From: a virus
IMG/VR virus record: IMGVR_UViG_3300027973_000048
Coordinates: 1-64,000 of that record
DNA: 64,000 nt
Reading direction: 5' to 3' (one strand)
Positions 2,166 to 14,612 of the stretch are shown piece by piece (positions within the stretch are counted from its first letter, which is position 1; each line of letters begins with the position of its first letter). The notes below the pieces were generated by a model. That model saw nothing but the letters and a program-made list of their open reading frames with translations, had not been told where the DNA came from and did no database searches. The position numbers and the translations under genes are program-made.

Positions 2166-3023
2166 ATGAACTATTATTCAATATTGGGGCTACAGCAAGG
2201 TTGTAGTCAAGAGGAAATCAAAAAAGCCTATAGAAGGCTAGCCAGCCAACACCATCCTGACAAGGGTGGTGACACTGCCACTTTTCAAAACATTCAAGCT
2301 GCTTACGAAACGTTAGGCGATCCTAACAAAAGATCCCAATATGACATGGGCAGTACAAGACCTCGACCCAATCAAGGTCCAGGTGGTTTTAACAACTTTG
2401 AAGATATTAACGACATATTTGCACAGGCATTTGCTGGCGGATTTGGTGGGAATCGATTTAACTTCAATGCTAGACAACAACCACGTAGAAACCTAGACCT
2501 AAATATTAGATGTAGAATAAGCCTATTGGACAGCTATACAGGCAAGGAATTAGAAGCTAATTTTGCCTTACCATCAGGTCGTAGAGAAACAGTGGTCATC
2601 AACGTTCCACCAGGAATCAATGATGGTGCCACCATACAGTTTAGAGGCATGGGCGATGACTCAAATGCAGCATGGCCCAGAGGCAATTTAAATTGCACTG
2701 TGACTGTGGACAGTGATCCAAACTTTGAACGTAGAGGTGATGACCTAACTACTGTTGTAGAAATATCTGCCATAGAAGCCATGATAGGTTGTACTAAACC
2801 AGTAGAGTCTATTGATGGCAAAAGTATGAATATTCGTATAAAGCCTGGCATAACACATGGCGGCGAATATGCTGCACAGGCCATGGGCTTTAAAAATTTG
2901 CAAACAAATATCAAAGGCAACTTTGTAATCATAGTAAATATCACAGTGCCTGAAATCACAGATCCAAAACTAAAGAAAAAATTAGAGGAAATAAAAAATG
3001 AAATTGATAAAATTTCCAAATGA
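2166..3023 (+). CDS. DnaJ/CbpA-like co-chaperone (J domain + C-terminal domain, no Zn finger)
   Basis: HPD motif, G/F-rich linker, DnaJ_C-like region. Confidence 0.9.
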   Translation: MNYYSILGLQQGCSQEEIKKAYRRLASQHHPDKGGDTATFQNIQAAYETLGDPNKRSQYDMGSTRPRPNQGPGGFNNFEDINDIFAQAFAGGFGGNRFNFNARQQPRRNLDLNIRCRISLLDSYTGKELEANFALPSGRRETVVINVPPGINDGATIQFRGMGDDSNAAWPRGNLNCTVTVDSDPNFERRGDDLTTVVEISAIEAMIGCTKPVESIDGKSMNIRIKPGITHGGEYAAQAMGFKNLQTNIKGNFVIIVNITVPEITDPKLKKKLEEIKNEIDKISK

Positions 3024-3525
3024 CATATTAAAGAAAACTATGCCAGAGTTTGACTTTGATAACCCAGTCATGCACCCCAAACAACTAGAAAGAGAAATGG
3101 TAGAACTCATGGTCCAAGAAAGAGGCATTGGACTAGCAGCTAATCAAGTGGGCATTGAAGCTAGAGTTATTGCCATATTCCCTCGTGATAGGAGTTTGGA
3201 AATGGGACCATTTGCCATGTTCAATCCCGAAGTAATGGAGGCCAGTGAGGAACTAGGAGAAGGTCTTGAAGGCTGTTTGAGCTTTCCAGATCTGGCACTG
3301 CCTATTAAACGTCCACGAATAGTGGTTGTACAATATCTTGACAACGAAGGAAATAACAATATAATAGAACTTAAGGACACAGATGCTAGATGCGTCTTAC
3401 ACGAAATAGAACATCTAGATGGAGTATGCTTTACTGACAAAGTAAGCAAATTGAAAATTGAAATGGCCCGTAAAAAATTATCTAAACTAAGGAAAAAATA
3501 TGGTAGAGCCCAGCGACAATCTTAA
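2998..3525 (+). CDS. def: Peptide deformylase
   Basis: GIGLAANQ, EGCLS and HEIEH motifs. Confidence 0.93.
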   Translation: MKLIKFPNDILKKTMPEFDFDNPVMHPKQLEREMVELMVQERGIGLAANQVGIEARVIAIFPRDRSLEMGPFAMFNPEVMEASEELGEGLEGCLSFPDLALPIKRPRIVVVQYLDNEGNNNIIELKDTDARCVLHEIEHLDGVCFTDKVSKLKIEMARKKLSKLRKKYGRAQRQS

Positions 3526-5776
3526 GGCAGTCTTTGAACACAGCATTGACTTGGCCAAGACTCTTAAACACGAGTACTTGACCATTGAACACTTGCTGTT
3601 TTCCATGCTCAGCGAAGAAGACTTTGTAAAATGCGTACAAGGGTTTGGCGGAGATGTTGACTACATTAAGAAAAATCTAGAACATTATCTTAAGAACAAA
3701 CTTACAGATATTGTCAAAGAAGACGTTGTCAAACCTAAAAAGACACAGGCCGTTGAACGTGTACTAAATCGTGCATTCACACAGGCTCTATTCAATGGTC
3801 GCCAAACTATGGAACTAAGCGATGTATTCCTTAGTATCATGGGAGAAAAACGTAGCTATGCCAGCTACTACATCCAACAGGCAGGTATTGACAAAGGAAA
3901 ATTTGCTGATTATTTAAACAGTGAACTACAAGGCGAAGAAGAGGAAACTGTCAACGACGTTCAAGTAGATCGTGCTATCAAAAATTTTACCACTAACTTA
4001 AACGATGCAGTTAAGAAAAACAAAGTTGATCCAGTTATTGGACGTGTGACAGAATTGGAAAATATTGCATTGGCCATGGGCCGTAGAAACAAAAGCAATG
4101 TACTACTGGTTGGTGACCCAGGCGTTGGTAAAACTGCCATTGCAGAAGGGTTAGCCTTTAATATTGTCAAAGGTGCTGTTCCAGAGTTCCTAAAAGACTA
4201 TGTGGTCTATAACTTGGACATCAGCAGCATGTTGGCCGGTAGCAAATATCGTGGAGACTTTGAAGAACGTTTCAAACTAGTACTCAAAGGCCTACAGAGC
4301 AAAGGCAAAACTATTTTGTTTATCGACGAAGCTCATATGATCAGTGGAGCTGGCTCAGCAGGTAATAGTGCTAATGACCTAGCTAACATGATGAAACCTG
4401 CACTGAGCAAGGGCAATATCAAAGTAGTAGCCAGTACTACATGGGAAGAATATCGCAAGTACTTTGAAAAAGATCGTGCTCTAATGCGTCGCTTCCAACG
4501 TATCACTGTAGACGAACCCAGTACCGAAACCACTGTGCAAATTCTTAAAGGTATTAAGAAATACTACGAAAGTCATCACAAAGTTAAAATTACCGAAGAA
4601 GCAATTCAAGCTGCGGTTAAACTCAGCGTGAAATACCAAAGTGATAAAAAACTTCCTGACAAGGCCATTGATCTTATTGATTGTGCCTGTTCAAGATTTA
4701 ATATTAAACTTGTAGAGGAAAGAACTATTGGTGAACCAGAAATTCAATTTGAACTAGCACGTATGATTCAAATGCCCGAAGAGCAAATTGCCGAAACTGA
4801 AAGCAACAATCTTGCCAACTTAGACACACAAATTGCTGCCGAAGTATATGGTCAAGATGCTGCTATTACTGAGCTAGTAGATAAAATCCTTGTTGCTCGT
4901 GCTGGACTTAAATCAGAAAACAAACCAATTGGCAGCTTTGTTTTCATGGGCCCAACTGGCTGTGGTAAAACTGAAACTGCTAAAGCATTGGCCAAACATT
5001 TGGGTGTTAAACTATTACGTTTTGACATGAGTGAATATCAGGAAAAACATAGTATTAGCAAACTAATTGGTAGTCCTCCAGGATACGTAGGCTTTGAGGA
5101 AAATGCCGGCTTGCTGATCACACAGATCCAAGAAAACCCATATAGCGTACTATTGTTTGATGAAGTGGAAAAGAGCCATCCAGATGTGTCCACTGTATTA
5201 CTGCAAATGATGGACAATGGCTTTATCACTGGCAGCAATGGTAAGAAGGCAGACTGTCGTAACATTGTGCTTATTCTTACTACCAATGCTGGCGCACAGG
5301 CAGCTGAAAAGAACCTTATTGGTTTTGGTAGCCAAGAACAACCTTACGATGACAAGGACCTTAAGAAATTCTTTAGTCCAGAGTTCCGTAATCGTCTTGA
5401 TGCCACTATTACCTTTAAGAAACTGGCCAAAGAAACTATGCGTAAGGTTGTGATTAAGTTTATTGACGAACTTAAATTCCAAGTTGCTGAAAAAGCCATC
5501 AAAGTCAAAATCAATGAAGCTGCTATTAACTGGTTGATTGAAAAAGGCTTTGATCCTAAGATGGGTGCAAGACCATTACAACGTGTTATTGACAAGGAAA
5601 TCAAACGTCCATTGGCTAAGATGATGCTGTTTGGTGATCTTAAGGATGGTGGTACTTTGATGATTACCAACAATTCAGTAAATGATGGGTTGATCTTAAC
5701 TAAGAAAGTCAAAGCTGTCAAGCCCGTGGAAATCGAAAATGAAGTTGAATCCCAAGATACCTATCAAGAGAACTAA
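3500..5776 (+). CDS. clpA: ATP-dependent Clp protease ATP-binding subunit ClpA-like
   Basis: Clp N domain; two AAA+ modules (GDPGVGKT, GPTGCGKT); RFDMSEY; IGF ClpP-docking loop; no ClpB M-domain. Confidence 0.92.
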   Translation: MVEPSDNLKAVFEHSIDLAKTLKHEYLTIEHLLFSMLSEEDFVKCVQGFGGDVDYIKKNLEHYLKNKLTDIVKEDVVKPKKTQAVERVLNRAFTQALFNGRQTMELSDVFLSIMGEKRSYASYYIQQAGIDKGKFADYLNSELQGEEEETVNDVQVDRAIKNFTTNLNDAVKKNKVDPVIGRVTELENIALAMGRRNKSNVLLVGDPGVGKTAIAEGLAFNIVKGAVPEFLKDYVVYNLDISSMLAGSKYRGDFEERFKLVLKGLQSKGKTILFIDEAHMISGAGSAGNSANDLANMMKPALSKGNIKVVASTTWEEYRKYFEKDRALMRRFQRITVDEPSTETTVQILKGIKKYYESHHKVKITEEAIQAAVKLSVKYQSDKKLPDKAIDLIDCACSRFNIKLVEERTIGEPEIQFELARMIQMPEEQIAETESNNLANLDTQIAAEVYGQDAAITELVDKILVARAGLKSENKPIGSFVFMGPTGCGKTETAKALAKHLGVKLLRFDMSEYQEKHSISKLIGSPPGYVGFEENAGLLITQIQENPYSVLLFDEVEKSHPDVSTVLLQMMDNGFITGSNGKKADCRNIVLILTTNAGAQAAEKNLIGFGSQEQPYDDKDLKKFFSPEFRNRLDATITFKKLAKETMRKVVIKFIDELKFQVAEKAIKVKINEAAINWLIEKGFDPKMGARPLQRVIDKEIKRPLAKMMLFGDLKDGGTLMITNNSVNDGLILTKKVKAVKPVEIENEVESQDTYQEN

Positions 5777-6386: not shown

Positions 6387-6400
6387 ATGTTATTCGTTTG

Positions 6401-6407
6401 ATAAATA
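6401..6407 (+). promoter_or_regulatory. T4-like late promoter element ATAAATA
   Basis: Intergenic, heads the putative capsid-protein block; same motif precedes other structural genes. Confidence 0.7.
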
Positions 6408-6433: not shown

Positions 6434-6820
6434 ATGAAAATTTTTGAACTGTTTAACAATACTAAAGAGCCCATTGACAAAGTCATGAAGGGCCATACTG
6501 AAGAAGTCATTGACAAAGACGAAAAGAAGTTGGACTTTGACTTGGCTGAAGACCTTGTTTATTTCATGCATCATAACGATGACTTTTATCGTAAAAACTT
6601 CTACCCTATATTAAAAATGTGTAAGGGTAGTTTTGATGATGGTAAAAATTTCAGTCATAGAGTGTTTAAACCTCTTATCAGTAAAGCTTACGAGTCATAC
6701 AAAAAAGAATTTCCAATTAGAGAATTGAAGGATGAATTAGAATCCAAGTTCATCGAACGAACTGCAAAACAAATTTATGAAACTGAATTGGGTCATATGA
6801 AAGACGGCAAATACGATTAA
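6434..6820 (+). CDS. Putative internal head protein
   Basis: N-terminus MKIFELF resembles neighbouring leaders; follows late motif. Confidence 0.6.
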   Translation: MKIFELFNNTKEPIDKVMKGHTEEVIDKDEKKLDFDLAEDLVYFMHHNDDFYRKNFYPILKMCKGSFDDGKNFSHRVFKPLISKAYESYKKEFPIRELKDELESKFIERTAKQIYETELGHMKDGKYD

Positions 6821-6821
6821 C

Positions 6822-8702
6822 ATGTTTCTAAGAGAACTATTTCACAGACCCCAACGACCTCTATTAGAGGGCGGGAATATATGGCCCGACACTGAACCAT
6901 TTGATCAAACCATAGCACAAAATTTGGCCAATACACTTGAAAAATATCTAAGTGATGCTGGACTAGAAGTATATAGAATTGGCAGCGGTGCTACTCCGAC
7001 ACCAGGCAAAATCAGTGGTGACCTAGATGTTATGGTAGATTTAAATCAAGCTGCTGAAAACTTTCAAATGGAACCAGATGGAAAACATGTACGAATTGCC
7101 TTGGAAAAATTCCTACAAGGTCAAGGATTAGAAACTAAAAAAAGCGGTGTTCAAGTACATGTTAAACTACCTTTCCATGATAGATTTCATCAAGTGGACA
7201 TTAAAGTAGTGCCAAAAGCGGGTAGAGTACATAGATTTCATGTACATGATATTCCCAAAGGTAGCCCATACAAGGGTGTCAACAAACAAATGATGATAAC
7301 CAATTTGGCCATCCATAAAGGCCTGTTGTGGAGTCCAGATGAAGGATTATTTAAACGTAATGAATTAGGCAAAAAGTCAGACTTCCTCAGTGACGACTTA
7401 GACGAAATTGCTCAATATCTACTTGGTTCACAGGCCACAGCAAGAGATTTAGGCAGCGTAGAAAGCATAATGGCCGCTATTCCAGATGAAAATCTACGCA
7501 ATGATATATTTGCTAAAGCTCGTGCTAGTAGTAGTTGGCAAAGTGCCACACCTGATGCAGGTGCTAATGCAACTCATTTACAAGAAGCAGCACCTGGAAT
7601 AGGTCGTAAGTATCAACATATTGAAGACTTGGTTTTTACTAACGGATCTAACGGCGGAATGCATGCCATCGAAAGACTACAATCAATGTCTAGTCAAGGT
7701 GGCAATATAGAACTTAAATGGGACGGCAGTCCTGTATTATACTGGGGCCGTGATGAAGATGGCACATTTTATATGATTCCTAAAAATGCTTGGGAATATT
7801 TAAAACGTGGTAAAACTAAATTAGAAACTGGTGTTAGTACAACACCAAAAACCCCCGATGAAGTACAGAGATTCATATTAGGCACTGGTAGAGTAGATCC
7901 AGACAAAGAAGTAACTCGCAAACAATATGCTCGTGAAATGAGTAATTTATGGCCCTATCTTGAACAGGCCAGTCCAGAGGTTGGCTTTGTAGAGGGCGGA
8001 CTATTATTCCATCCCGGTGCTAAACCCACTGTAAACAAACATACAGGTGAATATGAATTCACCCCAAACATTACCACATTCCATATTGGACATAGTACCG
8101 AACTAGGACAACGTATTGCCAAGGCCAAGGTCATGGTAGCTGTGACTGGCTATTATCCTGAATTAGGTAGCAGTGATGAAGGCAGAATGCCAGATGCAGA
8201 ATCATTAAGCACTCCTGAAGTTATTGTTCAAGGTACTACTTATGCTGAACCTCCTGAAGATATTGAAATGTCAGGCCTACTTCGTGCTCAAGATTTTATT
8301 AGCCAAAACGCAAACTTAATTGACGGATTCCTAGCACCTAAACCTGGCCTAAGTAAACCTGGTGATATACTTTATAAATTCTATAATCAAAACTTACGCA
8401 CACCCGGCGTTAAACAAAAGTTCCACGATTGGGTTACTAGAAACGTCAGTGCTGGTCAAAGTCAAAAAATTCTAGCAGATCATGCTGGCCTAAATGCCAT
8501 ACTTGACGCTGTGGAAATGATCACTCATGCCAAACTTGAACTAATAAATTCTCTGAGTGCAGGCACACACGGTGGTATTAGACAGACCAAACCAGAAGGC
8601 TATGTACAGGCACATCCTGGCTCACAATTTACAAACGATGTACCTGGACAATTTGTCAAAGCTATCGATCAAGCTAATTGGTCTCCGGACAAAGAAAGAT
8701 GA
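6822..8702 (+). CDS. Two-domain protein: Pol-beta-like nucleotidyltransferase + KxDG ligase-like domain
   Basis: GS...SGDLDVMVD and QVD in N-half; HIEDL, ELKWDG, EG, PEGYV and terminal K motifs in C-half; MFLRELF leader. Confidence 0.7.
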   Translation: MFLRELFHRPQRPLLEGGNIWPDTEPFDQTIAQNLANTLEKYLSDAGLEVYRIGSGATPTPGKISGDLDVMVDLNQAAENFQMEPDGKHVRIALEKFLQGQGLETKKSGVQVHVKLPFHDRFHQVDIKVVPKAGRVHRFHVHDIPKGSPYKGVNKQMMITNLAIHKGLLWSPDEGLFKRNELGKKSDFLSDDLDEIAQYLLGSQATARDLGSVESIMAAIPDENLRNDIFAKARASSSWQSATPDAGANATHLQEAAPGIGRKYQHIEDLVFTNGSNGGMHAIERLQSMSSQGGNIELKWDGSPVLYWGRDEDGTFYMIPKNAWEYLKRGKTKLETGVSTTPKTPDEVQRFILGTGRVDPDKEVTRKQYAREMSNLWPYLEQASPEVGFVEGGLLFHPGAKPTVNKHTGEYEFTPNITTFHIGHSTELGQRIAKAKVMVAVTGYYPELGSSDEGRMPDAESLSTPEVIVQGTTYAEPPEDIEMSGLLRAQDFISQNANLIDGFLAPKPGLSKPGDILYKFYNQNLRTPGVKQKFHDWVTRNVSAGQSQKILADHAGLNAILDAVEMITHAKLELINSLSAGTHGGIRQTKPEGYVQAHPGSQFTNDVPGQFVKAIDQANWSPDKER

Positions 8703-9916
8703 GACTAAGACAACTATTTGAAAATATTAATCGTACCGGGGAAGGTAAAACAGCCGTAGTAGGTTGGGGTAGAGGTATGGGCCATAAGGGCCATATGATG
8801 TTGGCCAGCAGCGTGATTACCCACGCCAAAGACAGCGAAGGCGATCCTTACTTTGTAGTCAGTAGAAGCTATGGTCCAGATGATCCTTTAGAACCTGAAG
8901 AAAAATTAGCCATATATCGTAAAGTATTTCCTGAACAAGGTCATATATTTCAAACTGCCACAGATGAATTGCCAGACCTAACAAGAGTGTTAGCTAACTT
9001 AAATCAACAAGGTTATACAAATGCCATAATTGTTGTAGGTGCTGATCAAAAAGCGGCCTTCCAATACCTAAATCATTACAATGGCAAACCAGACAAAAAA
9101 GGCAATATTGCTTTTGACTTTGAAAACTTGCAAGTTATCAGTCGACAAGAAACCAGTGACCCAAGTCGTGAAGAAGAAGGTCCACGTGCCACACCTATGC
9201 GAGCTGTGTTGATGGATCCATCAAAGAGTCATGATGAGCAATTTGCAGTATGGCGTGATGCTATGAGCCCAGAGATTGACGATGAGGAAGTTATGGCTCT
9301 AATGCATAAGGCGCAACAGCGTATGACTCAAATGGCTGCTGAAAAAAAGCCTAAAAAAAAAGTAGCTGAGACTACATTAAACGAGTTTGACCATGCTCGT
9401 CATGTCAAACTGCTTAATGCCCATATGCAGAAATTAGGCTACGAAAATATCGGTGCTGGAACAGATGCACAAGTATTTGCTAAAGAAACCGGGCCAGTGA
9501 AAAAGATACTTATGCCTGAAAGTGGAGATATTTCTACTGCTGAAAATTCATTCCTGGCATTTTACAACTATTGCCAGGCAAATGCCCGTAATCCACACTT
9601 GCCAAAGTTTCACCAAATTCAAGACAATATTGAATTAGATGGCGAACGGTTTCGTCAAATAACCATGGAACGACTCGAAGAAGTAGATCCTGAGTATGAA
9701 GACATGCTGGTTAGTATGACAGACGGTATTGAAGAGGGTAAGCCATTAGATCCACAATATCGACCATATATTAAATTCTATCAAACATTGAAATCAGTTA
9801 TGCTCACAGGTCGTAAATTAGGCTTTGAGAATGATATCATCACTTTTCAAAGTTGCAATGTAATGCAGAGAGGTAATACATTGGTGATCATGGATCCATG
9901 GATGGGTGGCGGTTAA
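8699..9916 (+). CDS. Two-domain protein: HxGH cytidylyltransferase-like + protein-kinase-like domain
   Basis: ATGA overlap start MRLRQLFE; GHKGH, VVGADQ; C-terminal IGAGTDAQVF..K..MERL..D..NVM..VIMDP. Confidence 0.7.
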   Translation: MRLRQLFENINRTGEGKTAVVGWGRGMGHKGHMMLASSVITHAKDSEGDPYFVVSRSYGPDDPLEPEEKLAIYRKVFPEQGHIFQTATDELPDLTRVLANLNQQGYTNAIIVVGADQKAAFQYLNHYNGKPDKKGNIAFDFENLQVISRQETSDPSREEEGPRATPMRAVLMDPSKSHDEQFAVWRDAMSPEIDDEEVMALMHKAQQRMTQMAAEKKPKKKVAETTLNEFDHARHVKLLNAHMQKLGYENIGAGTDAQVFAKETGPVKKILMPESGDISTAENSFLAFYNYCQANARNPHLPKFHQIQDNIELDGERFRQITMERLEEVDPEYEDMLVSMTDGIEEGKPLDPQYRPYIKFYQTLKSVMLTGRKLGFENDIITFQSCNVMQRGNTLVIMDPWMGGG

Positions 9917-10147
9917 ATGAACTTAGATGAATTAAAAAAATTAGCAGGCATTAACGAATATCGAGGATATGTTAAATACGATATAGACAACCCTTATGGT
10001 GGTAGCAATATCAGCTTGACTGGGGACGAAAAAGGCCAACTAATGAAGAAACATAATATTATACCAGGTAGCAAGGAATGGTTCCAACTATGGTTTAGTA
10101 TGCCTTACCTCACAGGCGAACCGCCCGTTGGCAAGGGGATGAGATGA
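9917..10147 (+). CDS. Small putative internal head protein
   Basis: MNLDELKKLAGINE leader. Confidence 0.65.
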   Translation: MNLDELKKLAGINEYRGYVKYDIDNPYGGSNISLTGDEKGQLMKKHNIIPGSKEWFQLWFSMPYLTGEPPVGKGMR

Positions 10148-10518
10148 AGATCAGAGAATTATTAGAAGTTAGCCAAGGCAAAATCACCAAGAGGCAGCAA
10201 GAACCTACTAGAGGTTTGAGCACCTACAGTGATGTGGAAATGGCCAATAGCGACTATGTGGCATTTAAATTAGGGCAGGCCATGGCAGGCACTGATGGCT
10301 CTAAAACTCCAGATATTGACGGCAAAAGTTGGTTCGGTAAAAAGAAAACTATTCATCCATACACTGAAGTAGAAAATGAAATGTTTAAAAAAGCTGCCAA
10401 AGTGGTAGGCGCCAAATATACTGACCTTAACAAAGGTGATATGAAAAGTAAAGAATTACCTTCCACACATACTGTCAGTCCTGTACACAAACATAAAAAG
10501 AACAAATACGGTGTATAA
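10144..10518 (+). CDS. Putative internal head protein
   Basis: MKIRELLE leader; basic. Confidence 0.65.
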   Translation: MKIRELLEVSQGKITKRQQEPTRGLSTYSDVEMANSDYVAFKLGQAMAGTDGSKTPDIDGKSWFGKKKTIHPYTEVENEMFKKAAKVVGAKYTDLNKGDMKSKELPSTHTVSPVHKHKKNKYGV

Positions 10519-10520
10519 TT

Positions 10521-10703
10521 ATGAAAATACGCGAATTACTTGAAACAGCCTCAGCAGGTGGAACTAGCGCAGGCAATGTCACAGTAGGCCCAACTTATAA
10601 AAATAAAAAGGGCAAGACTTATAAAAACAAAGATGGCACAGTAAAAAATGCGCTGGATGTCAAAGGAGCAAACCTTTTAACTGGCGGCAGCTTAAAACGA
10701 TAA
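10521..10703 (+). CDS. Small putative internal head protein
   Basis: Identical MKIRELLE leader. Confidence 0.65.
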   Translation: MKIRELLETASAGGTSAGNVTVGPTYKNKKGKTYKNKDGTVKNALDVKGANLLTGGSLKR

Positions 10704-12119: not shown

Positions 12120-14612
12120 ATGGACATGAAGAAATATATTACTCTTGTGGAAAGTGCTGCTAAACCCCTTGAGATTAAGGCTAAACCTGTTCAACCTAAA
12201 ACAGAACCTGCACCACTAGTACATATTTCAGAAAGTTACGAATCTAGTGCGGCCATTAGAAAAATTGTTCGCAATATAATGGAGAAGAAAAATCCTCCAC
12301 AACCACCTAAACAACGTAATCCTGTGGCTAAAAACGCCAATGCTGCTGTAGGGGGTGGTGCTGCTGGCAAACATAAAGACAAGAAAAAAGACGCCAAACA
12401 AGGTGTACAAAAGCATAAAGGTCAACAACTAGACGAGTATCTCGAAAGAGAAAAGCCCACTGACGGCGAATTATTATTGTTGATGAAAAAATATAGATTG
12501 GCAAAAATATCCGGCAAACCATTAGCCAGTGTGATGCGCCAGTCAGATATACATAAACTAATTGATGCAGAAAAAGATGGTCGTATAGAAGCATTAAAAT
12601 ATAGAGATTCCATTGAGGAAGAACAATATGATAGCAAAGGCGAATTCAAACGTCGTGAACTAGAACATGAGCTAGGTCACGAAACTAGAAGTGGTTCCGT
12701 GTATATTGATGGCAAATATTGGAAAACATTTGACGATTATAAACAAGCACAAAATGTATCTAGAAGCTTGGAAAGAAAAGGCAAACGTGCCACAGTACGT
12801 ATTCATGAATCAAAAAAACCAAAAAAGACTGCACAGGAAAAACTTAGTGCTGCCGTAGACAAAGAACGTAAAAAAAATGAACCTGCTACACGTCGAGCCA
12901 AACAAGAATTAGACGCCATAATGCCTAGTTCAAAAAAGGCATCCCCAGTAAGCGAAAAAATGCGTACTCCATTTGCTGGTGCTGCTGTTGGTCACAAAGA
13001 AGGCCCAGCTGGTCAATTAAAAGCCATGGATCCAAAAGGTTATCCCAAAGGTAAACTAGTCGGTGGTGCATTGGAAGAGGGTCGGGTATGTCCACAATGT
13101 GGCAGCAGCAAATGCAGTTGCCCGCCTGGTAAATGCAAATGTAAACCAGTAGCTGGATTCAAACCTAAAATGAAAGAGGATAAAGATCCTTGCTGGGACA
13201 ACTACAAAATGGTAGGCACTAAAAAGAAAGGCAGCAAGACTGTGCCAAATTGTGTGCCAAAAGAAAGTAGAGTGGGTGAGGCACAGAATGCAGCTCAACA
13301 GGCTGCTATTGCTATTGCTAAAAAGAAAAAGAAAGGTGTGGCGGAAGGCGGCCCATTTAGTTATGGTAAACCCCCACGCAAAGGCTCAGTGGCTGATTTG
13401 GCCGCAAAGCGTCGTAAAGAACAGGATAGAAAAACTCCCCCCATTGAACCAAAAGACCAAATGGTTGGCAACGCTAAGGTCACGAAAAATACAAAGGAAG
13501 GCTTGAAGCAGATGCTACGTAAAGTCGATCCTACTATCAAATCAAGATTACGTAGAAAAGCGGATGATCTTGATTATGAAGGTGATGAAGTACATCAAGA
13601 TTTAAAATCTATGGGCATGGAGCCTCACGATGCTATGACTCGTAACATGGATCCTGAAAAATATTATAGAAATGCAGATCGCTATCGTAGATTGGCCGAC
13701 AAAGATGTAGATGAAACTCAACTGGATGAACTAGATCGTCCAAGTGGTAAACTATACATTATTATCACCGCAGATAACGCTGGCGCTCCCCATGTGTTTG
13801 GCGACTTTGGATCATTCCCACAAGACGTCATGCACAAGATTGCCAAACGTGGCACTAGAGATAAATCAGGTGCCAAAACTAAACTAAAGATTGATTTCTT
13901 GTTTGATGACTTTAGAACTACAATTCAACATTTAAGAACCATATTTAGAGACTTAGACTTTATTGGTGCAGAAGCAGCAGAATTTATTATTAAAAGTTCC
14001 GCCTTACGCAGTGACCAAGGTGAAGAAGTTAAACATCTAAGAGATTACATTCAAGCTGGCGATGATCGTCGTATGAAAATGTATCAAGCACCTGAGGACG
14101 ATGAAGAAGAAGGCGAGCCAACTGGTGGCAATATATTACGTATTGACCCTGAAACCGGTGCTGCACGTAGAGTTGTTGGAGTAAAACCACAAACACAGAT
14201 GGGCGGCCATGCTGTAGCACAACCAACTACTTTTAAATACACATTATTAAAAACTGAACTCATGCCCAAACTACGTGATATGGGATTCAAGTTCGATGGA
14301 AATCAAATCATATTAAGAGCAGATCAGAGAGACAAGTTAAAGAACATGTTAGGATCACAATTTCAAAGCGTATTTGGACAAAAAGGAATGTTTAAAGAAG
14401 GTGGCGAAAAATATAAAATTAAAACTACGGGCAGTGACATTAATCCAGCAACTGGTAAGAGAGCAGATTATTACATCAGTCCAAATACAGGTAAAAAAGT
14501 TTATAAAAAAGCCAACGTAGGTGATCACGAAAGTCCTAACAGTGGCGAACACAAACCCAAAGTAGAAGGTCAGATTGCTCGGTCCATTATGGAAGAATTT
14601 GGATTGACATAG
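12120..14612 (+). CDS. Large modular putative head polyprotein (830 aa)
   Basis: MDMKKYITLVES leader; many short unrelated modules bounded by [LIVMF]-x-E. Confidence 0.65.
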   Translation: MDMKKYITLVESAAKPLEIKAKPVQPKTEPAPLVHISESYESSAAIRKIVRNIMEKKNPPQPPKQRNPVAKNANAAVGGGAAGKHKDKKKDAKQGVQKHKGQQLDEYLEREKPTDGELLLLMKKYRLAKISGKPLASVMRQSDIHKLIDAEKDGRIEALKYRDSIEEEQYDSKGEFKRRELEHELGHETRSGSVYIDGKYWKTFDDYKQAQNVSRSLERKGKRATVRIHESKKPKKTAQEKLSAAVDKERKKNEPATRRAKQELDAIMPSSKKASPVSEKMRTPFAGAAVGHKEGPAGQLKAMDPKGYPKGKLVGGALEEGRVCPQCGSSKCSCPPGKCKCKPVAGFKPKMKEDKDPCWDNYKMVGTKKKGSKTVPNCVPKESRVGEAQNAAQQAAIAIAKKKKKGVAEGGPFSYGKPPRKGSVADLAAKRRKEQDRKTPPIEPKDQMVGNAKVTKNTKEGLKQMLRKVDPTIKSRLRRKADDLDYEGDEVHQDLKSMGMEPHDAMTRNMDPEKYYRNADRYRRLADKDVDETQLDELDRPSGKLYIIITADNAGAPHVFGDFGSFPQDVMHKIAKRGTRDKSGAKTKLKIDFLFDDFRTTIQHLRTIFRDLDFIGAEAAEFIIKSSALRSDQGEEVKHLRDYIQAGDDRRMKMYQAPEDDEEEGEPTGGNILRIDPETGAARRVVGVKPQTQMGGHAVAQPTTFKYTLLKTELMPKLRDMGFKFDGNQIILRADQRDKLKNMLGSQFQSVFGQKGMFKEGGEKYKIKTTGSDINPATGKRADYYISPNTGKKVYKKANVGDHESPNSGEHKPKVEGQIARSIMEEFGLT

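What the first reader, a model, noticed from the sequence alone, without database searches (positions are those of the whole stretch)
6822..9916. Two double-enzyme proteins with capsid-type leaders: NTase | ligase-like and HxGH NTase | kinase-like, a possible injected enzyme kit
Seen: ORF1 = MFLRELF...LLE, Pol-beta-like GS..GDLD domain, HLQE, then a KWDG...EG...EGYV...K domain. ORF2 (ATGA-coupled) = MRLRQLFE, HKGH domain, basic linker ending VAE..LNE, then a kinase-like domain (GAGTDAQV, K, MERL, D..NVM, DP). Each domain boundary carries an L-x-E site. Established: T4 prohead protease cleaves after [LI]-x-E, and internal head proteins are injected with the DNA; KxDG is motif I of RNA/DNA ligases. 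Inference: four enzymes released during head maturation and delivered at infection, suited to RNA/tRNA end repair, nucleotide or NAD-type cofactor handling, or modification of host defence proteins. Substrates cannot be read from sequence.
Basis: partly seen in the sequence, partly recalled or inferred. Interest (0 to 1): 0.8.

Follow-up and report, generated by a model that had tools for sequence, protein, structure and literature searches.

The report
Head-tagged phage enzyme polyproteins
Two coupled late genes of an uncultured giant T4-type phage encode four enzymes, and T4-style head-loading leaders and protease cut sites mark them as probable capsid cargo injected with the DNA, though no cut or packaging has been measured.

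Summary
ORF1 (6822-8702) and ORF2 (8699-9916) overlap by ATGA, and every motif listed is present.

**Domains**
- ORF1 N-terminal half: a minimal family-X polymerase fold (VIA Z 11-11.7).
- ORF1 C-terminal half: DUF6267, with invariant KxDG, EG and Lys. Its fold matches to RNA ligases are weak.
- ORF2 N-terminal half: NMNAT-like HxGH enzyme (Z about 10).
- ORF2 C-terminal half: probably a T7 gp0.7-type kinase. This is the weakest call.

**Evidence for capsid loading and cleavage**
- The leaders resemble the T4 capsid-targeting sequence and are conserved as peptide, not as DNA.
- [ILVMF]-x-E precedes the modules in 79-89% of diverged homologs, against a 13% background.
- Both the leaders and the inter-module linkers are predicted to be disordered.
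- The folded modules avoid [ILV]-x-E: 3 observed, 12.7 expected.
- A late-promoter-like GATAAATA heads the operon.
- Three larger related records encode a gp21-type prohead protease.
- NMNAT-like homologs with the same leader were found by mass spectrometry in cyanophage virions.

Cleavage, packaging and substrates remain inferred.

This scan reached the same reading earlier on other genomes. What this window adds is the kinase-like module sitting in a variable slot, and the site-avoidance test.

The parts
6400..6407 (+). Late-promoter-like GATAAATA, 33 nt upstream of the first leader-bearing ORF (6434); heads the co-directional run that includes ORF1 and ORF2
   Evidence: ATAAATA occurs 14 times in the window. 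Ten of these lie 11-37 nt upstream of a same-strand gene start, including sheath, tube and other structural genes. The orthologous block in G001 carries the motif at the same place. That T4 late promoters read TATAAATA is established knowledge, not tested here.
6434..6820 (+). First gene of the run: 128-aa protein with leader MKIFELF..., function unknown
   Evidence: Pfam gives only a weak SUKH-1 hit (E 0.048).
6822..6869 (+). ORF1 leader (aa 1-16, MFLRELF...LLE), predicted propeptide ending in L-L-E before GGNIW
   Evidence: Conserved in about 110 of the 120 homologs listed. Short forms MILLE|GGNIW and MILNE|GGN also exist. pLDDT is below 50 for aa 1-12. E16 is 86% conserved.
6870..7547 (+). 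ORF1 module A (aa 17-242): minimal family-X-polymerase-like nucleotidyltransferase (palm plus thumb)
   Evidence: Foldseek: pol lambda/beta, E 6e-6, probability 1.0, 200-240 columns. VIA: Z 11-11.7; ASFV Pol X aligns over 161 of 176 residues at rmsd 3.1. G54, S55, D67, D69, D126, K151 and G152 are conserved in 36 homologs. A PDB profile search finds the Tailor TUTase at E 0.006.
7548..7595 (+). ORF1 inter-module linker (aa 243-258) holding L-Q-E(253-255)|AAPGIG
   Evidence: pLDDT is below 50 for aa 243-258. The two halves exist as separate proteins elsewhere and break here. Stand-alone DUF6267 proteins begin with a leader ending ...[LIV]xE(A)|A just before the G-R-x-[YF]-x-H-x-E-D motif.
7596..8699 (+). 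ORF1 module B (aa 259-626): DUF6267, ligase-like covalent nucleotidyltransferase candidate with a helical insert (about aa 484-579)
   Evidence: Pfam PF19782, E 1e-16. H266, E268, D269, K299, D301, G302, K571, E592, G593 and K613 are 95-100% conserved in about 60 homologs. The only solved-structure matches to this half are RNA ligases: 5cot Z 7.0 and 1xdn Z 6.3. BFVD finds 'RNA ligase' of phage Atu_ph07 at probability 0.95. The protein atlas gives a lead to PF09414 at score 0.78.
8699..8722 (+). ORF2 leader (aa 1-8, MRLRQLFE), predicted propeptide
   Evidence: M[RFL]LR[QN][LI]FE is conserved in the homologs. pLDDT is below 50 for aa 1-9. Forms fused to ORF1 keep [ILVM]-x-E at this joint, for example NIAE|NINRTGEG.
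8723..9343 (+). ORF2 module C (aa 9-215): HxGH nucleotidyltransferase, NMNAT-like
   Evidence: phrog_3041 and phrog_395 'cytidyltransferase', E 2e-21. VIA: NadM, archaeal NMNAT and NadR at Z 9.1-10.2. It is homologous to the core 'cytidyltransferase/NMNAT' of T4-like cyanophages.
9344..9388 (+). ORF2 basic linker (aa 216-230) with V-A-E(222-224) and L-N-E(227-229)
   Evidence: pLDDT is below 50 for aa 216-230. The linker [QG]-G-V-A-E-[GDST] flanks the kinase-like module on both sides in many different fusion contexts.
9389..9913 (+). ORF2 module D (aa 231-405): T7 gp0.7-type protein-kinase-like module (weakest assignment), sitting in a variable C-terminal slot
   Evidence: phrog_15752 matches 18 of 22 family members, best E 1.5e-7, and E 1.2e-4 for this copy. 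Atlas neighbours carry PF27024 Phage_T7_kinase in 23% of members, score 0.97. hhalign against T7 gp0.7 is collinear and lines up the G-x-G, V-x-K, N-[IV]-M and [IT]-x-D-P motifs, but E is 0.13. There is no Pfam or PDB sequence hit, and the AF2 model of this part is poor.
9917..10703 (+). Three further small leader-bearing ORFs (9917-10147, 10144-10518, 10521-10703); two start MKIRELLE and are basic after the leader (pI 9.6 and 10.2), like T4 internal proteins

Best explanation
ORF1 and ORF2 are late-expressed capsid cargo polyproteins of a T4-type jumbo myovirus. The proposed sequence of events is as follows. First, a short N-terminal leader (M-[KRFL]-[LIF]-x-[EQ]-[LIF]-[LF]..E), equivalent to the T4 capsid-targeting sequence, docks them on the scaffolding core of the prohead (inferred). 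Second, the gp21-type prohead protease then cuts after Glu in exposed [L/I/V]-x-E|[G/A/S] sites. This removes the leaders and separates the modules at the disordered linkers LLE16|G, LQE255|A, LFE8|N and VAE224|T (inferred). Third, four free enzymes stay in the head and enter the cell with the DNA (inferred). They are a minimal PolX-like polymerase or nucleotidyltransferase, a DUF6267 ligase-like enzyme, an NMNAT-like adenylyltransferase and a gp0.7-like kinase. The most likely task is immediate protection of the incoming genome and takeover of the host. PolX-like plus ligase-like would fill and seal nicks, gaps or nuclease cuts. The NMNAT-like enzyme, which always accompanies them, would supply or regenerate an adenylylated cofactor such as NAD+. 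The kinase would modify host proteins, as T7 gp0.7 and the injected T4 Alt do. What is shown: the folds, the motifs, conservation of leaders and joints, site avoidance, the genomic context, and the presence of homologs in virions. What is not shown: the cuts, the packaging, the injection and every substrate.
For: Folds: PolX, NMNAT-like, ligase-like, kinase-like. Leader: conserved across homologs. It is conserved at the peptide level with synonymous codon changes; for example the two MKIRELLE copies differ at 5 of 8 codons. It is enriched at N-termini: G001 10/445 against 2/2250, G000 5/90 against 0/539. It resembles the T4 CTS MKTYQEFIAE (PMC8442874) and the 6-residue ITE leader of Alt (PMC5694885). 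Joints: [ILVMF]xE precedes module starts in 42/47 and 78/99 cases against a 13% background. The site logo is P3 L/I/V, P1 E, P1' G/A/S. Fused forms keep the site. The kinase-like module is flanked by G-V-A-E-G in many architectures. Leaders and linkers are the only low-confidence segments of a pLDDT 91.7 model. Site avoidance: the four modules hold 3 [ILV]xE against 12.7 expected, while 11 other proteins of the window have O/E 0.8-2.2. The G001 ortholog of ORF1 has the lowest O/E of 99 proteins, 0.17. Family members with a leader site have O/E 0.62, those without have 0.90, Mann-Whitney p 0.0075. Protease: PF03420 scores above its cut-off in all 3 larger related records. In G001 an 80-aa leader-bearing protein sits between the portal and the gp21-like protease. 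Late expression: NATAAATA lies ahead of the block, as it does ahead of structural genes. Proteomics of homologs: the S-SCSM1 NMNAT, which is hit H66 of ORF2's N-domain and starts MKSFLQFLKE|AA, and the S-CREM2 cytidylyltransferase and kinase were detected in purified virions (PMC9602691; PMC10665884). The A-B-C trio is syntenic in 70/70 related loci with enough flank and fused in 4 of them.
Against: There is no direct evidence for these proteins: no virion proteome, no N-terminal peptide, no protease assay. The 74-kb contig is about 21% of a genome and holds no protease gene of its own. The authors of the proteomics papers themselves note that abundant late proteins may co-purify with virions. 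The E-G-G after the ORF1 leader is conserved and may be part of the fold, which would inflate the count of junction sites for module A. A generic leader regex is only weakly enriched at N-termini (9/445 against 19/2250, p 0.037), and the sharper motif was defined post hoc. The site-avoidance statistics are not corrected for phylogeny, and avoidance is weak in module D (2 observed, 2.7 expected). Some homologs, such as the DUF6267 protein gp182 of P-TIM40, have no leader. The ligase fold matches are modest (Z 6-7), and hhalign against T7 ligase finds nothing. The kinase call rests on weak scores.
Confidence: 0.6

Rival explanations
1. The four enzymes work in the cytoplasm of the infected cell late in infection, for example in DNA repair or maturation before packaging and in NAD supply, and are not packaged. 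On this view the shared N-terminus is some other signal, such as an assembly or interaction tag, or recognition by the phage's ClpA-like unfoldase encoded just upstream. The [L/I/V]-x-E joints would be flexible-linker habits of a recombining module family.
For: No direct packaging data exist. The block lies beside ClpA-like and peptide deformylase genes rather than head genes. The proteomics authors caution about co-purification. Some homologs lack a leader.
Against: This does not explain why folded modules avoid [ILV]xE while other proteins of the same genome do not. It does not explain why the leader matches the T4 CTS in length and pattern and ends in Glu. It does not explain why a leader-bearing 80-aa protein sits between the portal and the protease. 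It does not explain why NMNAT-like homologs recur in virion proteomes of several phages.
Confidence: 0.22
2. The proteins are packaged and processed as proposed, but the chemistry is RNA- or nucleotide-directed rather than DNA repair. A terminal nucleotidyltransferase plus a nick-sealing RNA ligase would mend tRNA or mRNA cut by host anticodon nucleases. Alternatively the NMNAT-like enzyme would restore NAD+ against NAD-depleting defences.
For: The only solved structures that match module B are RNA ligases of the Rnl2/Rnl5 type, with a PF09414 lead and a BFVD 'RNA ligase' match. TUTases match the palm of module A at Z about 9. Module C is closest to NMNAT.
Against: Module A matches family-X DNA polymerases better and over more residues, palm plus thumb (160-188 aligned, Z 11-11.7), than it matches TUTases (about 100 aligned, Z 9). 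No end-healing module (polynucleotide kinase/phosphatase or 2H phosphoesterase) accompanies the trio in the window. The substrate cannot be read from the sequence either way.
Confidence: 0.3
3. The shared N-terminal and junction sequences are recombination or translation-initiation signals at the DNA or RNA level. They would be cassette borders that allow modules to be shuffled, with no role as peptide signals.
For: Modules are clearly shuffled at these joints: the slot after module C holds different tails, and the kinase module occurs in many fusions. An internal fossil leader MRLYELE is seen at a fusion point.
Against: The codons of the leaders differ at synonymous positions while the peptide is kept. 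The site is defined by amino-acid classes (P3 L/I/V, P1 E, P1' G/A/S) across homologs of 25-60% identity. This reading does not explain site avoidance inside modules.
Confidence: 0.05

Closest known systems
Phage T4 head cargo: internal proteins IPI, IPII, IPIII and the ADP-ribosyltransferase Alt, loaded through the capsid-targeting sequence and trimmed by the prohead protease gp21
   Same: A short N-terminal leader ends in [I/L]-x-E and is followed by a small residue (T4: MKTYQEFIAE|A; Alt: ITE-6). Cargo genes are variable and sit behind a constant leader. Relatives carry a gp21-type protease. Small basic proteins lie in the same gene run. An enzyme is delivered with the DNA (PMC8442874, PMC5694885, PMC3012670).
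   Different: Here the cargo is multi-enzyme polyproteins with internal cut sites between modules. The enzymes are nucleotidyltransferases and a kinase rather than a restriction inhibitor or an ADP-ribosyltransferase. Nothing has been measured for this phage.
Polyvalent proteins of phages and conjugative elements (Iyer et al. 2017, PMC5512222)
   Same: They are strings of shuffled enzymatic modules (kinases lacking the C-lobe, GNAT, Pol-beta NTases, ParB) predicted to be packaged and delivered on invasion, and then processed into separate units.
   Different: Those proteins are thought to be processed by their own zincin-like MPTase domain. Here there is no peptidase module, and the joints carry the motif of the head maturation protease. 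Targeting is by a T4-type leader rather than by fusion to MuF or portal-associated domains.
African swine fever virus Pol X (174 aa) with the ASFV DNA ligase: a minimal viral fill-and-seal repair pair
   Same: Module A is a family-X fold reduced to palm plus thumb. It aligns with ASFV Pol X over 161 of 176 residues (Z 11.2) and is paired with a ligase-type enzyme.
   Different: Sequence identity is only 16%. The partner is DUF6267, not a classical DNA ligase with an OB domain. The two are fused and head-tagged. Activity and substrate are untested.
Virion-associated NMNAT-like 'cytidyltransferase' and kinases of T4-like cyanophages (S-SCSM1 ORF91, S-CREM2 ORF154 and ORF14, S-CBWM1)
   Same: Module C is homologous to them (26-33% identity over most of the domain). 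The cyanophage proteins start with the same leader type (MKSFLQFLKE|AA, MRFLDFIKE|A). They were detected by mass spectrometry in purified virions. DUF6267 lies next to them, or is fused to them, in P-TIM40 and S-PM2.
   Different: The papers do not describe a leader, a cleavage, or the PolX and DUF6267 partners. In the jumbo lineage the enzyme carries a variable C-terminal module, here the kinase-like one.
Phage T7 gp0.7 seryl-threonyl protein kinase
   Same: Module D hits the PHROG annotated with this function and aligns collinearly with gp0.7 through the Gly-rich loop, the V-x-K strand, N-[IV]-M and the [IT]-x-D-P motif.
   Different: The scores are weak (hhalign E 0.13). The Asp of the F-D-x-H-x-x-N segment of gp0.7 is Gln in this copy. 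gp0.7 is an early cytoplasmic protein, not virion cargo.

Membership tests
T4-type capsid-targeted cargo (CTS plus gp21 processing) | N-terminal leader of about 6-16 residues ending in [L/I]-x-E, shared by otherwise unrelated proteins of the phage | tested here: met
   Six consecutive ORFs (6434-10703) carry it. It is conserved in homologs of both ORFs. It is kept as peptide despite synonymous codon changes. The T4 pattern is taken from PMC8442874 and PMC5694885.
T4-type capsid-targeted cargo (CTS plus gp21 processing) | The phage encodes a gp21-type (Peptidase_S77) prohead protease | tested here: inconclusive
   It is absent from the 74-kb contig, which is about 21% of a genome. It is present above the cut-off in all three larger related records, including a 399,796-bp record rated 100% complete by CheckV (phrog_207 E 2e-57).
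T4-type capsid-targeted cargo (CTS plus gp21 processing) | Leader removed by cleavage after Glu; protein present inside mature heads and ejected | not testable with these tools
   Only indirect evidence is available: disordered leader and linkers, site avoidance, and homologs in cyanophage virion proteomes.
T4-type capsid-targeted cargo (CTS plus gp21 processing) | Late expression together with head proteins | tested here: inconclusive
   A late-promoter-like GATAAATA lies 33 nt upstream of the first ORF of the run, as it does ahead of sheath and tube genes and ahead of the orthologous block in G001. There are no transcript data.
Family X DNA polymerases (Pol beta, lambda, mu, TdT, ASFV Pol X) | Pol-beta-type palm with hG[GS] and a D-x-D plus a third Asp | tested here: met
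   G54-S55, D67, D69 and D126 are conserved in 89-100% of 36 homologs.
Family X DNA polymerases (Pol beta, lambda, mu, TdT, ASFV Pol X) | Palm followed by the C-terminal thumb subdomain that holds the nascent base pair | tested here: met
   VIA aligns 160-188 residues spanning model residues 20-217 to pol beta, lambda, mu, TdT, Thermus PolX and ASFV Pol X at Z 11-11.7. TUTases align only about 100 palm residues at Z about 9. Foldseek probability is 1.0.
Family X DNA polymerases (Pol beta, lambda, mu, TdT, ASFV Pol X) | 8-kDa dRP-lyase domain and helix-hairpin-helix fingers | tested here: not met
   Only the 16-residue leader precedes the palm. The same reduction is known in ASFV Pol X, so module A is like the minimal form, not the canonical form.
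Family X DNA polymerases (Pol beta, lambda, mu, TdT, ASFV Pol X) | Template-directed DNA synthesis | not testable with these tools
   Needs a primer-extension assay.
Covalent nucleotidyltransferases (ATP/NAD ligases, RNA ligases, capping enzymes) | Motif I K-x-D-G with the nucleophilic Lys | tested here: met
   K299 is 98% conserved, D301 and G302 100%, in about 60 homologs of 25-77% identity.
Covalent nucleotidyltransferases (ATP/NAD ligases, RNA ligases, capping enzymes) | Motifs III, IIIa, IV (E-G-x-h) and V (Lys) in order | tested here: inconclusive
   E592-G593-Y-V and K613 are invariant and fit motifs IV and V. Motif III is not clear: the query has E391-G-G where the family consensus reads G-D. 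About 290 residues, including a helical insert, separate motifs I and IV.
Covalent nucleotidyltransferases (ATP/NAD ligases, RNA ligases, capping enzymes) | Adenylyltransferase fold | tested here: inconclusive
   The only solved chains that match this half are RNA ligases: 5cot Z 7.0 with 175 aligned, 1xdn Z 6.3 with 180 aligned. BFVD finds 'RNA ligase' of Atu_ph07 at probability 0.95, E 2.6e-3. The whole 626-aa model was searched, which weakens single-domain scores. hhalign against T7 ligase finds nothing.
HxGH (HIGH) nucleotidylyltransferases, NMNAT branch | Rossmann-like fold with the H-x-G-H motif near the N-terminus | tested here: met
   G-H29-K-G-H32 is conserved in nearly all homologs listed. 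VIA matches NadM 2qjt Z 10.2, archaeal NMNAT 1f9a Z 9.7 and NadR Z 9.1 over model residues 9-225. phrog_3041 scores E 2e-21.
HxGH (HIGH) nucleotidylyltransferases, NMNAT branch | NMN or NaMN as substrate | not testable with these tools
   PPAT, FAD synthetase and cytidylyltransferases score within 1-2 Z units of the NMNATs, so the branch is not settled.
T7 gp0.7-type protein kinases | Significant similarity to the family model | tested here: inconclusive
   phrog_15752 matches 18/22 members, best E 1.5e-7, this copy 1.2e-4. Atlas neighbours carry PF27024 in 23% of members. hhalign against T7 gp0.7 gives E 0.13. PF27024 is not in the Pfam copy at hand.
T7 gp0.7-type protein kinases | Gly-rich loop, beta-3 Lys, catalytic Asp/Asn segment and metal-binding Asp | tested here: inconclusive
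   G-A-G-T-D-A-Q-V, V-K-K, N-V-M and I-M-D-P line up with gp0.7. N166, D178 and D158 (module numbering) are invariant in 22 members. The position of the catalytic Asp differs from gp0.7.
Polyvalent proteins (Iyer et al. 2017) | Several unrelated effector domains in one polypeptide of a phage, with shuffled architectures | tested here: met
   Modules A, B, C and D occur alone and in many combinations with GNAT, ParB, sigma-70, NUDIX, deaminase and ASCH.
Polyvalent proteins (Iyer et al. 2017) | Own processing peptidase (MPTase) domain | tested here: not met
   No peptidase domain was found in ORF1 or ORF2 by Pfam, PHROGs or fold search.

The most novel reading that the evidence does not exclude
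T4-type jumbo and cyanobacterial myoviruses carry a ready-made DNA fill-and-seal machine inside the capsid. It would consist of a minimal polymerase X, a new ligase family (DUF6267) and an NMNAT-like enzyme that feeds the ligase its adenylyl donor. All three would be released from polyproteins by the head protease and injected with the genome, so that nicks and nuclease cuts are mended before any phage gene is expressed. A plug-in slot at the end, here a gp0.7-like kinase, would deliver a changeable host-takeover effector. This would be a virion-borne counter-defence by repair, and a general, programmable cargo-loading grammar made of a leader plus [L/I/V]-x-E joints.
Probability: 0.25. Interest if true: 0.85.

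Novelty: new variant of a known kind. Interest (0 to 1): 0.62.

Why it matters
- **A polymerase and ligase as virion cargo.** If the reading is right, large aquatic phages deliver a polymerase, a ligase-type enzyme, a cofactor enzyme and a kinase as proteins together with their DNA. That would extend the T4 internal-protein and Alt paradigm from single inhibitors to processed multi-enzyme polyproteins.
- **A function for DUF6267.** It would give a first functional context to DUF6267, for which I found no paper. It would do the same for the 'cytidyltransferase' that is a core gene of T4-like cyanophages and keeps turning up in their virion proteomes without explanation.
- **Repair at the moment of entry.** Ligase-dependent repair of nuclease cuts was recently shown to protect phiKMV-like phages (preprint 10.64898/2026.09.21.753257). 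Loading the ligase into the capsid would place such repair at the moment of DNA entry.
- **A usable cargo grammar.** The leader-plus-joint rule is simple enough to test and to use for loading foreign proteins into capsids, as is already done with the T4 CTS.

Tried and rejected
- **DNA search.** blastn of the region against 50,697 phage records found nothing.
- **Single-sequence searches.** Searches of both ORFs against PDB chains and NCBIfam found nothing useful.
- **Foldseek on ORF2.** The whole ORF2 model gave no clear match because half of it is poorly predicted. The VIA wide search was needed to place the N-domain.
- **First ORF2 alignment (A2).** MAFFT misplaced the kinase modules, so I discarded it and rebuilt it as A3 and A4.
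- **Kinase module profile.** The profile against PDB and Pfam gave no kinase hit, and PF27024 is not in the local Pfam.
- **hhalign comparisons.**
  - The ORF1 family against T7 DNA ligase gave no alignment of the motifs.
  - Against the 444-aa 'virion protein' upstream of the S-SCSM1 NMNAT it showed no relation, so that gene is not a DUF6267.
  - P-TIM40 gp181 is not a homolog of module A.
- **Literature.** A search for DUF6267 returned no paper.
- **Leader regex.** A loose regex was only weakly enriched at N-termini and too permissive, so I replaced it with a sharper but post-hoc motif.
- **Late promoter.** The exact T4 sequence TATAAATA is not over-represented in the window (3 matches, 7.3 expected). 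Only its placement, and the 7-mer ATAAATA placed before gene starts, are informative.
- **Not run.** I did not look up sequencing runs or lay reads on the region, because contigs cannot show protein processing.

Full report
**Setting**

The window is the first 64 kb of a 74,066-bp IMG/VR virus record that CheckV rates about 21% complete. It encodes a T4-type family B DNA polymerase, UvsX, a gp32-like SSB, a large terminase, tail sheath and tube, an endolysin and holin, a peptide deformylase and a ClpA-like ATPase. It is therefore a fragment of a T4-related jumbo myovirus. A related record of 399,796 bp, called G001 here, is rated 100% complete.

**Observation**

- ORF1 runs 6822-8702 (626 aa) and ORF2 runs 8699-9916 (405 aa from its ATG).
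- The ORF1 stop overlaps the ORF2 start, as ATGA.
- The ATG at 8699, not the upstream TTG, is the start, because the homologs begin there with the same leader.

**What the four modules are**

*ORF1 as a whole.* AlphaFold2 on a 72-sequence alignment gave a confident model, mean pLDDT 91.7. Only two segments fall below 50: residues 1-12 and 243-258.

*Module A, ORF1 residues about 17-242.*
- It matches family X DNA polymerases. Foldseek finds pol lambda and pol beta at E 6e-6 with probability 1.0.
- VIA-align gives Z 11-11.7 to pol beta, lambda, mu, TdT, Thermus PolX and ASFV Pol X, with 160-188 residues aligned. ASFV Pol X aligns over 161 of its 176 residues at rmsd 3.1.
- Terminal uridylyltransferases match only the palm: about 100 residues, Z about 9.
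- G54-S55, D67, D69 and D126 are conserved in 36 homologs down to 25% identity.
- There is no 8-kDa or helix-hairpin-helix domain, so it is a minimal PolX-like enzyme.

*Module B, ORF1 residues 259-626.*
- It is Pfam DUF6267. A literature search for that name returned no paper.
- H266, E268, D269, K299-x-D301-G302, K571, E592-G593 and K613 are 95-100% conserved in about 60 homologs.
- K-x-D-G, E-G-Y-V and a downstream Lys fit motifs I, IV and V of the covalent nucleotidyltransferases. Motif III is unclear.
- The only solved structures matching this half are nick-sealing RNA ligases: 5cot at Z 7.0 and 1xdn at Z 6.3.
- BFVD lists an annotated phage RNA ligase at probability 0.95. The protein atlas gives a weak lead to PF09414.
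- I read it as a ligase-like enzyme of an undescribed branch, with moderate confidence.

*Module C, ORF2 residues 9-215.*
- This part is well modelled and is closest to NMN adenylyltransferases: NadM Z 10.2, archaeal NMNAT 9.7, NadR 9.1.
- It is homologous to the core 'cytidyltransferase/NMNAT' gene of T4-like cyanophages, pelagiphages and Methylophilales phages.

*Module D, ORF2 residues 231-405.*
- This part is poorly modelled.
- A PHROG annotated as T7 gp0.7-type kinase matches 18 of 22 family members, best E 1.5e-7.
- Atlas neighbours partly carry Phage_T7_kinase.
- hhalign against T7 gp0.7 is collinear through the expected motifs but not significant, E 0.13.
- I treat the kinase call as probable, not established.

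**Modularity**

- The two halves of ORF1 exist as separate proteins and in many other fusions, and they break at residues about 250-257.
- Module C is 70-80% identical across hundreds of proteins whose C-terminal parts differ: none, an unknown tail, GNAT, ParB, sigma-70 or the kinase-like module.
- The kinase-like module in turn occurs with deaminase/GNAT, Pol-beta NTase, NUDIX, ASCH and HxGH partners.
- In 70 of 70 related viral loci with enough downstream sequence, module C directly follows A-B. In four of them it is fused to A-B. The other 10 loci end within about 420 nt of ORF1.
- In cyanophages, DUF6267 lies next to the cytidyltransferase (P-TIM40) or is fused to it (S-PM2).

**The leaders and joints**

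*Leaders.*
- Six consecutive ORFs (6434-10703) start with M-[KRFN]-[ILF]-x-[EQ]-[LF]-[LFK].
- The peptide is conserved, not the DNA: the two MKIRELLE copies differ at five of eight codons.
- ORF1 homologs keep M[FL]LRELF, then 5-8 variable residues, then [LIM]-x-E|GGNIW. Some have only MILLE|GGNIW.
- ORF2 homologs keep M-x-L-R-x-[LI]-F-E.

*Diverged representatives, clustered at 50% identity.*
- Stand-alone modules carry leaders such as MRAFEFLVEA|A, MKIRQLITE|A and MILNE|GG. Internal copies are preceded by [LIV]-x-E.
- [ILVMF]-x-E lies in the 10 residues around the module start in 42/47 cases for module A and 78/99 for module B, against 13% of windows elsewhere in the same proteins.
- The site logo is P3 L/I/V, P1 E, P1' G/A/S. 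Leader lengths peak at 5-6 and at 9-10 residues.

*Other joints.*
- Fused A-B-C proteins keep the site at the B-C joint, for example N-I-A-E|N.
- The kinase-like module is flanked on both sides by [QG]-G-V-A-E-[GDS] whatever its neighbour is.

*Comparison with T4, taken from papers.*
- The CTS MKTYQEFIAE is removed from the internal proteins by gp21 (PMC8442874).
- Alt is cut at ITE-6 and LTE-619.
- All these proteases cut after Glu.
- All T4 internal head proteins reach the core through a CTS (PMC5694885).

**Further tests bearing on packaging**

1. **Disorder.** The leaders and the two linkers are the only low-confidence segments in the ORF1 model and in the well-modelled N-terminal half of ORF2.
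2. **Site avoidance in this window.**
   - ORF1 has five [ILVMF]xE sites in 626 residues, three of them in the 32 residues of leader and linker.
   - The four folded modules hold 3 [ILV]xE against 12.7 expected from shuffles. DUF6267 holds 0 against 4.8 (P 0.0035).
   - Eleven other proteins of the window have observed/expected ratios of 0.8-2.2.
3. **Site avoidance in relatives.**
   - In G001 the ORF1 ortholog has the lowest ratio of all 99 proteins with at least 4 expected sites (0.17). The major capsid protein is also low, at 0.58.
   - Within the family, members with a site before the first module have a ratio of 0.62 and those without have 0.90 (Mann-Whitney p 0.0075, not corrected for relatedness).
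4. **Protease.**
   - The contig itself has no Peptidase_S77, but all three larger related records do.
   - In G001 the order is portal, an 80-aa protein starting MILRELF, then (after intervening ORFs) the gp21-type protease, a scaffold-like protein and the major capsid protein.
   - From my knowledge of T4 gene order (20-67-68-21-22-23), which I did not test here, that 80-aa protein sits where gp67 sits.
5. **Leader enrichment.** A sharp leader motif fits 10/445 N-termini against 2/2250 internal Met in G001, and 5/90 against 0/539 in the window's contig. The motif was defined after seeing the window. A looser one is only weakly enriched.
6. **Timing.** ATAAATA occurs 14 times in the window, ten of them 11-37 nt upstream of a same-strand start. 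These include the sheath, tube and other structural genes, as well as 6434 and 10727. The orthologous block in G001 has it at the same places.
7. **Proteomics of homologs.**
   - The NMNAT of S-SCSM1 is the very gene hit by ORF2's N-domain (H66). It is annotated as a virion protein, was detected by mass spectrometry in CsCl-purified virions, and starts MKSFLQFLKE|AA.
   - S-CREM2 virions contain a cytidylyltransferase and an APH/ChoK-like kinase. The authors note frequent detection of such proteins in cyanophage virions, and they caution about co-purification.

**Mechanism proposed**

The genes are expressed late. The leaders dock the polyproteins on the prohead core, and the head protease removes the leaders and cuts the linkers. 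Four enzymes remain in the head and enter the cell with the DNA.

The constant trio suggests fill-and-seal repair of the incoming genome:
- The PolX-like and ligase-like modules would do the filling and sealing.
- The NMNAT-like enzyme would perhaps make or regenerate the adenylyl donor.

A recent preprint shows that a phage ligase can protect against restriction and Cas12a cuts (10.64898/2026.09.21.753257).

The kinase-like module occupies a changeable last slot and would act on host proteins, by analogy with T7 gp0.7 and with the injected T4 Alt.

An RNA-directed or NAD-restoring role is a serious alternative, because the structural neighbours of module B are RNA ligases. The substrate cannot be decided from sequence.

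**Comparison with what is known**

- The loading principle is that of T4 internal proteins and Alt.
- The module shuffling is that of the 'polyvalent proteins' of Iyer et al. (PMC5512222). Those, however, are thought to be cut by their own metallopeptidase domain, which is absent here.
- I found no paper that describes the PolX-DUF6267-NMNAT set, its leaders or its joints.
- I therefore class it as a new variant of a known kind.

**Relation to earlier notes of this scan**

After forming my reading, I found that follow-up agents had reached the same reading on other genomes: head-tagged PolX, DUF6267 and NMNAT-like enzymes, and protease-jointed cargo polyproteins. First-stage notes on this genome describe the wider 13-kb leader block.

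These notes are not independent evidence. This report adds four things:
- the kinase-like fourth module in a variable slot;
- the site-avoidance tests;
- the direct link of ORF2's homolog to a published virion proteome entry that carries the same leader;
- the placement of the late-promoter-like motif.

**Limits**

- Nothing was measured for these proteins.
- The contig is a fragment.
- Several statistics use related sequences or a motif defined post hoc.
- The conserved E-G-G at the start of module A may be partly structural.

Noticed in passing
window 10521-10703 (+); G001 93329-94504: The 60-aa protein MKIRELLE|TASAGGTSAGNV... continues, right after its leader, with almost the same residues that follow a predicted L-A-E site in the N-terminal region of the major capsid protein of the related genome G001 (...KYLAE|TASAGTTSAGNV). 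It may be a capsid-protein N-terminus mimic or a fragment of it. After the leader it is very basic (pI 10.2).
   Followed up: partly
window 2998-5776 (+); G001 227931-228770: A peptide deformylase and a full-length ClpA-like AAA+ unfoldase are encoded just upstream of the leader block. In G001 a DnaJ-like protein lies near the orthologous block. Phage-encoded chaperones next to the cargo genes might help to load or unfold cargo; this was not tested.
   Followed up: no
L012:12571-13284 (+) and window 12120-14612 (+): In 8 related loci the tail behind the NMNAT-like module begins with an internal leader-like MRLYELE and continues with a module (LYIIFKLNP...GDFATFPEEV) that recurs inside the 830-aa protein of the window (KLYIIITADN...GDFGSFPQDV). 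This looks like a fossil of a gene fusion, and it shows modules moving between different cargo polyproteins.
   Followed up: partly
window 6434-6820 (+): The first gene of the run (128 aa, leader MKIFELF) has only a weak Pfam hit to SUKH-1/SMI1-KNR4 (E 0.048), a family often used as immunity proteins. It has an ortholog at the head of the block in G001.
   Followed up: no
window, 14 sites, e.g. 52427, 55227, 55711, 57603, 58329, 61746, 63266 (-) and 6401, 10700, 38228 (+): The 7-mer ATAAATA sits 11-37 nt upstream of gene starts in 10 of its 14 occurrences and marks the structural genes. It is a usable late-promoter marker for this phage group: 49 of 445 genes in G001 have it within 50 nt upstream.
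   Followed up: partly
G001 321220 (-), 285184-287439 (-), 81624-82520 (+), 387027-388377 (-): Other leader-bearing proteins of the complete relative lie outside the ORF1/ORF2 block. They include a 429-aa protein with a kinase-type G-x-G-x-x-G-K-V-Y loop, a 752-aa protein, a 299-aa protein near the head genes, and a run of three (two small and basic, one with a peptidoglycan-binding-like motif). The cargo set is probably about 15-20 proteins per genome.
   Followed up: partly
BFVD hit A0A0M6VVW4 (Synechococcus phage S-PM2, 591 aa): The S-PM2 'cytidyltransferase-like' protein aligns structurally with the DUF6267 half of ORF1 over about 430 columns. In this well-studied cyanophage the ligase-like and HxGH modules are therefore one protein, which makes it a convenient cultured system for testing.
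   Followed up: no
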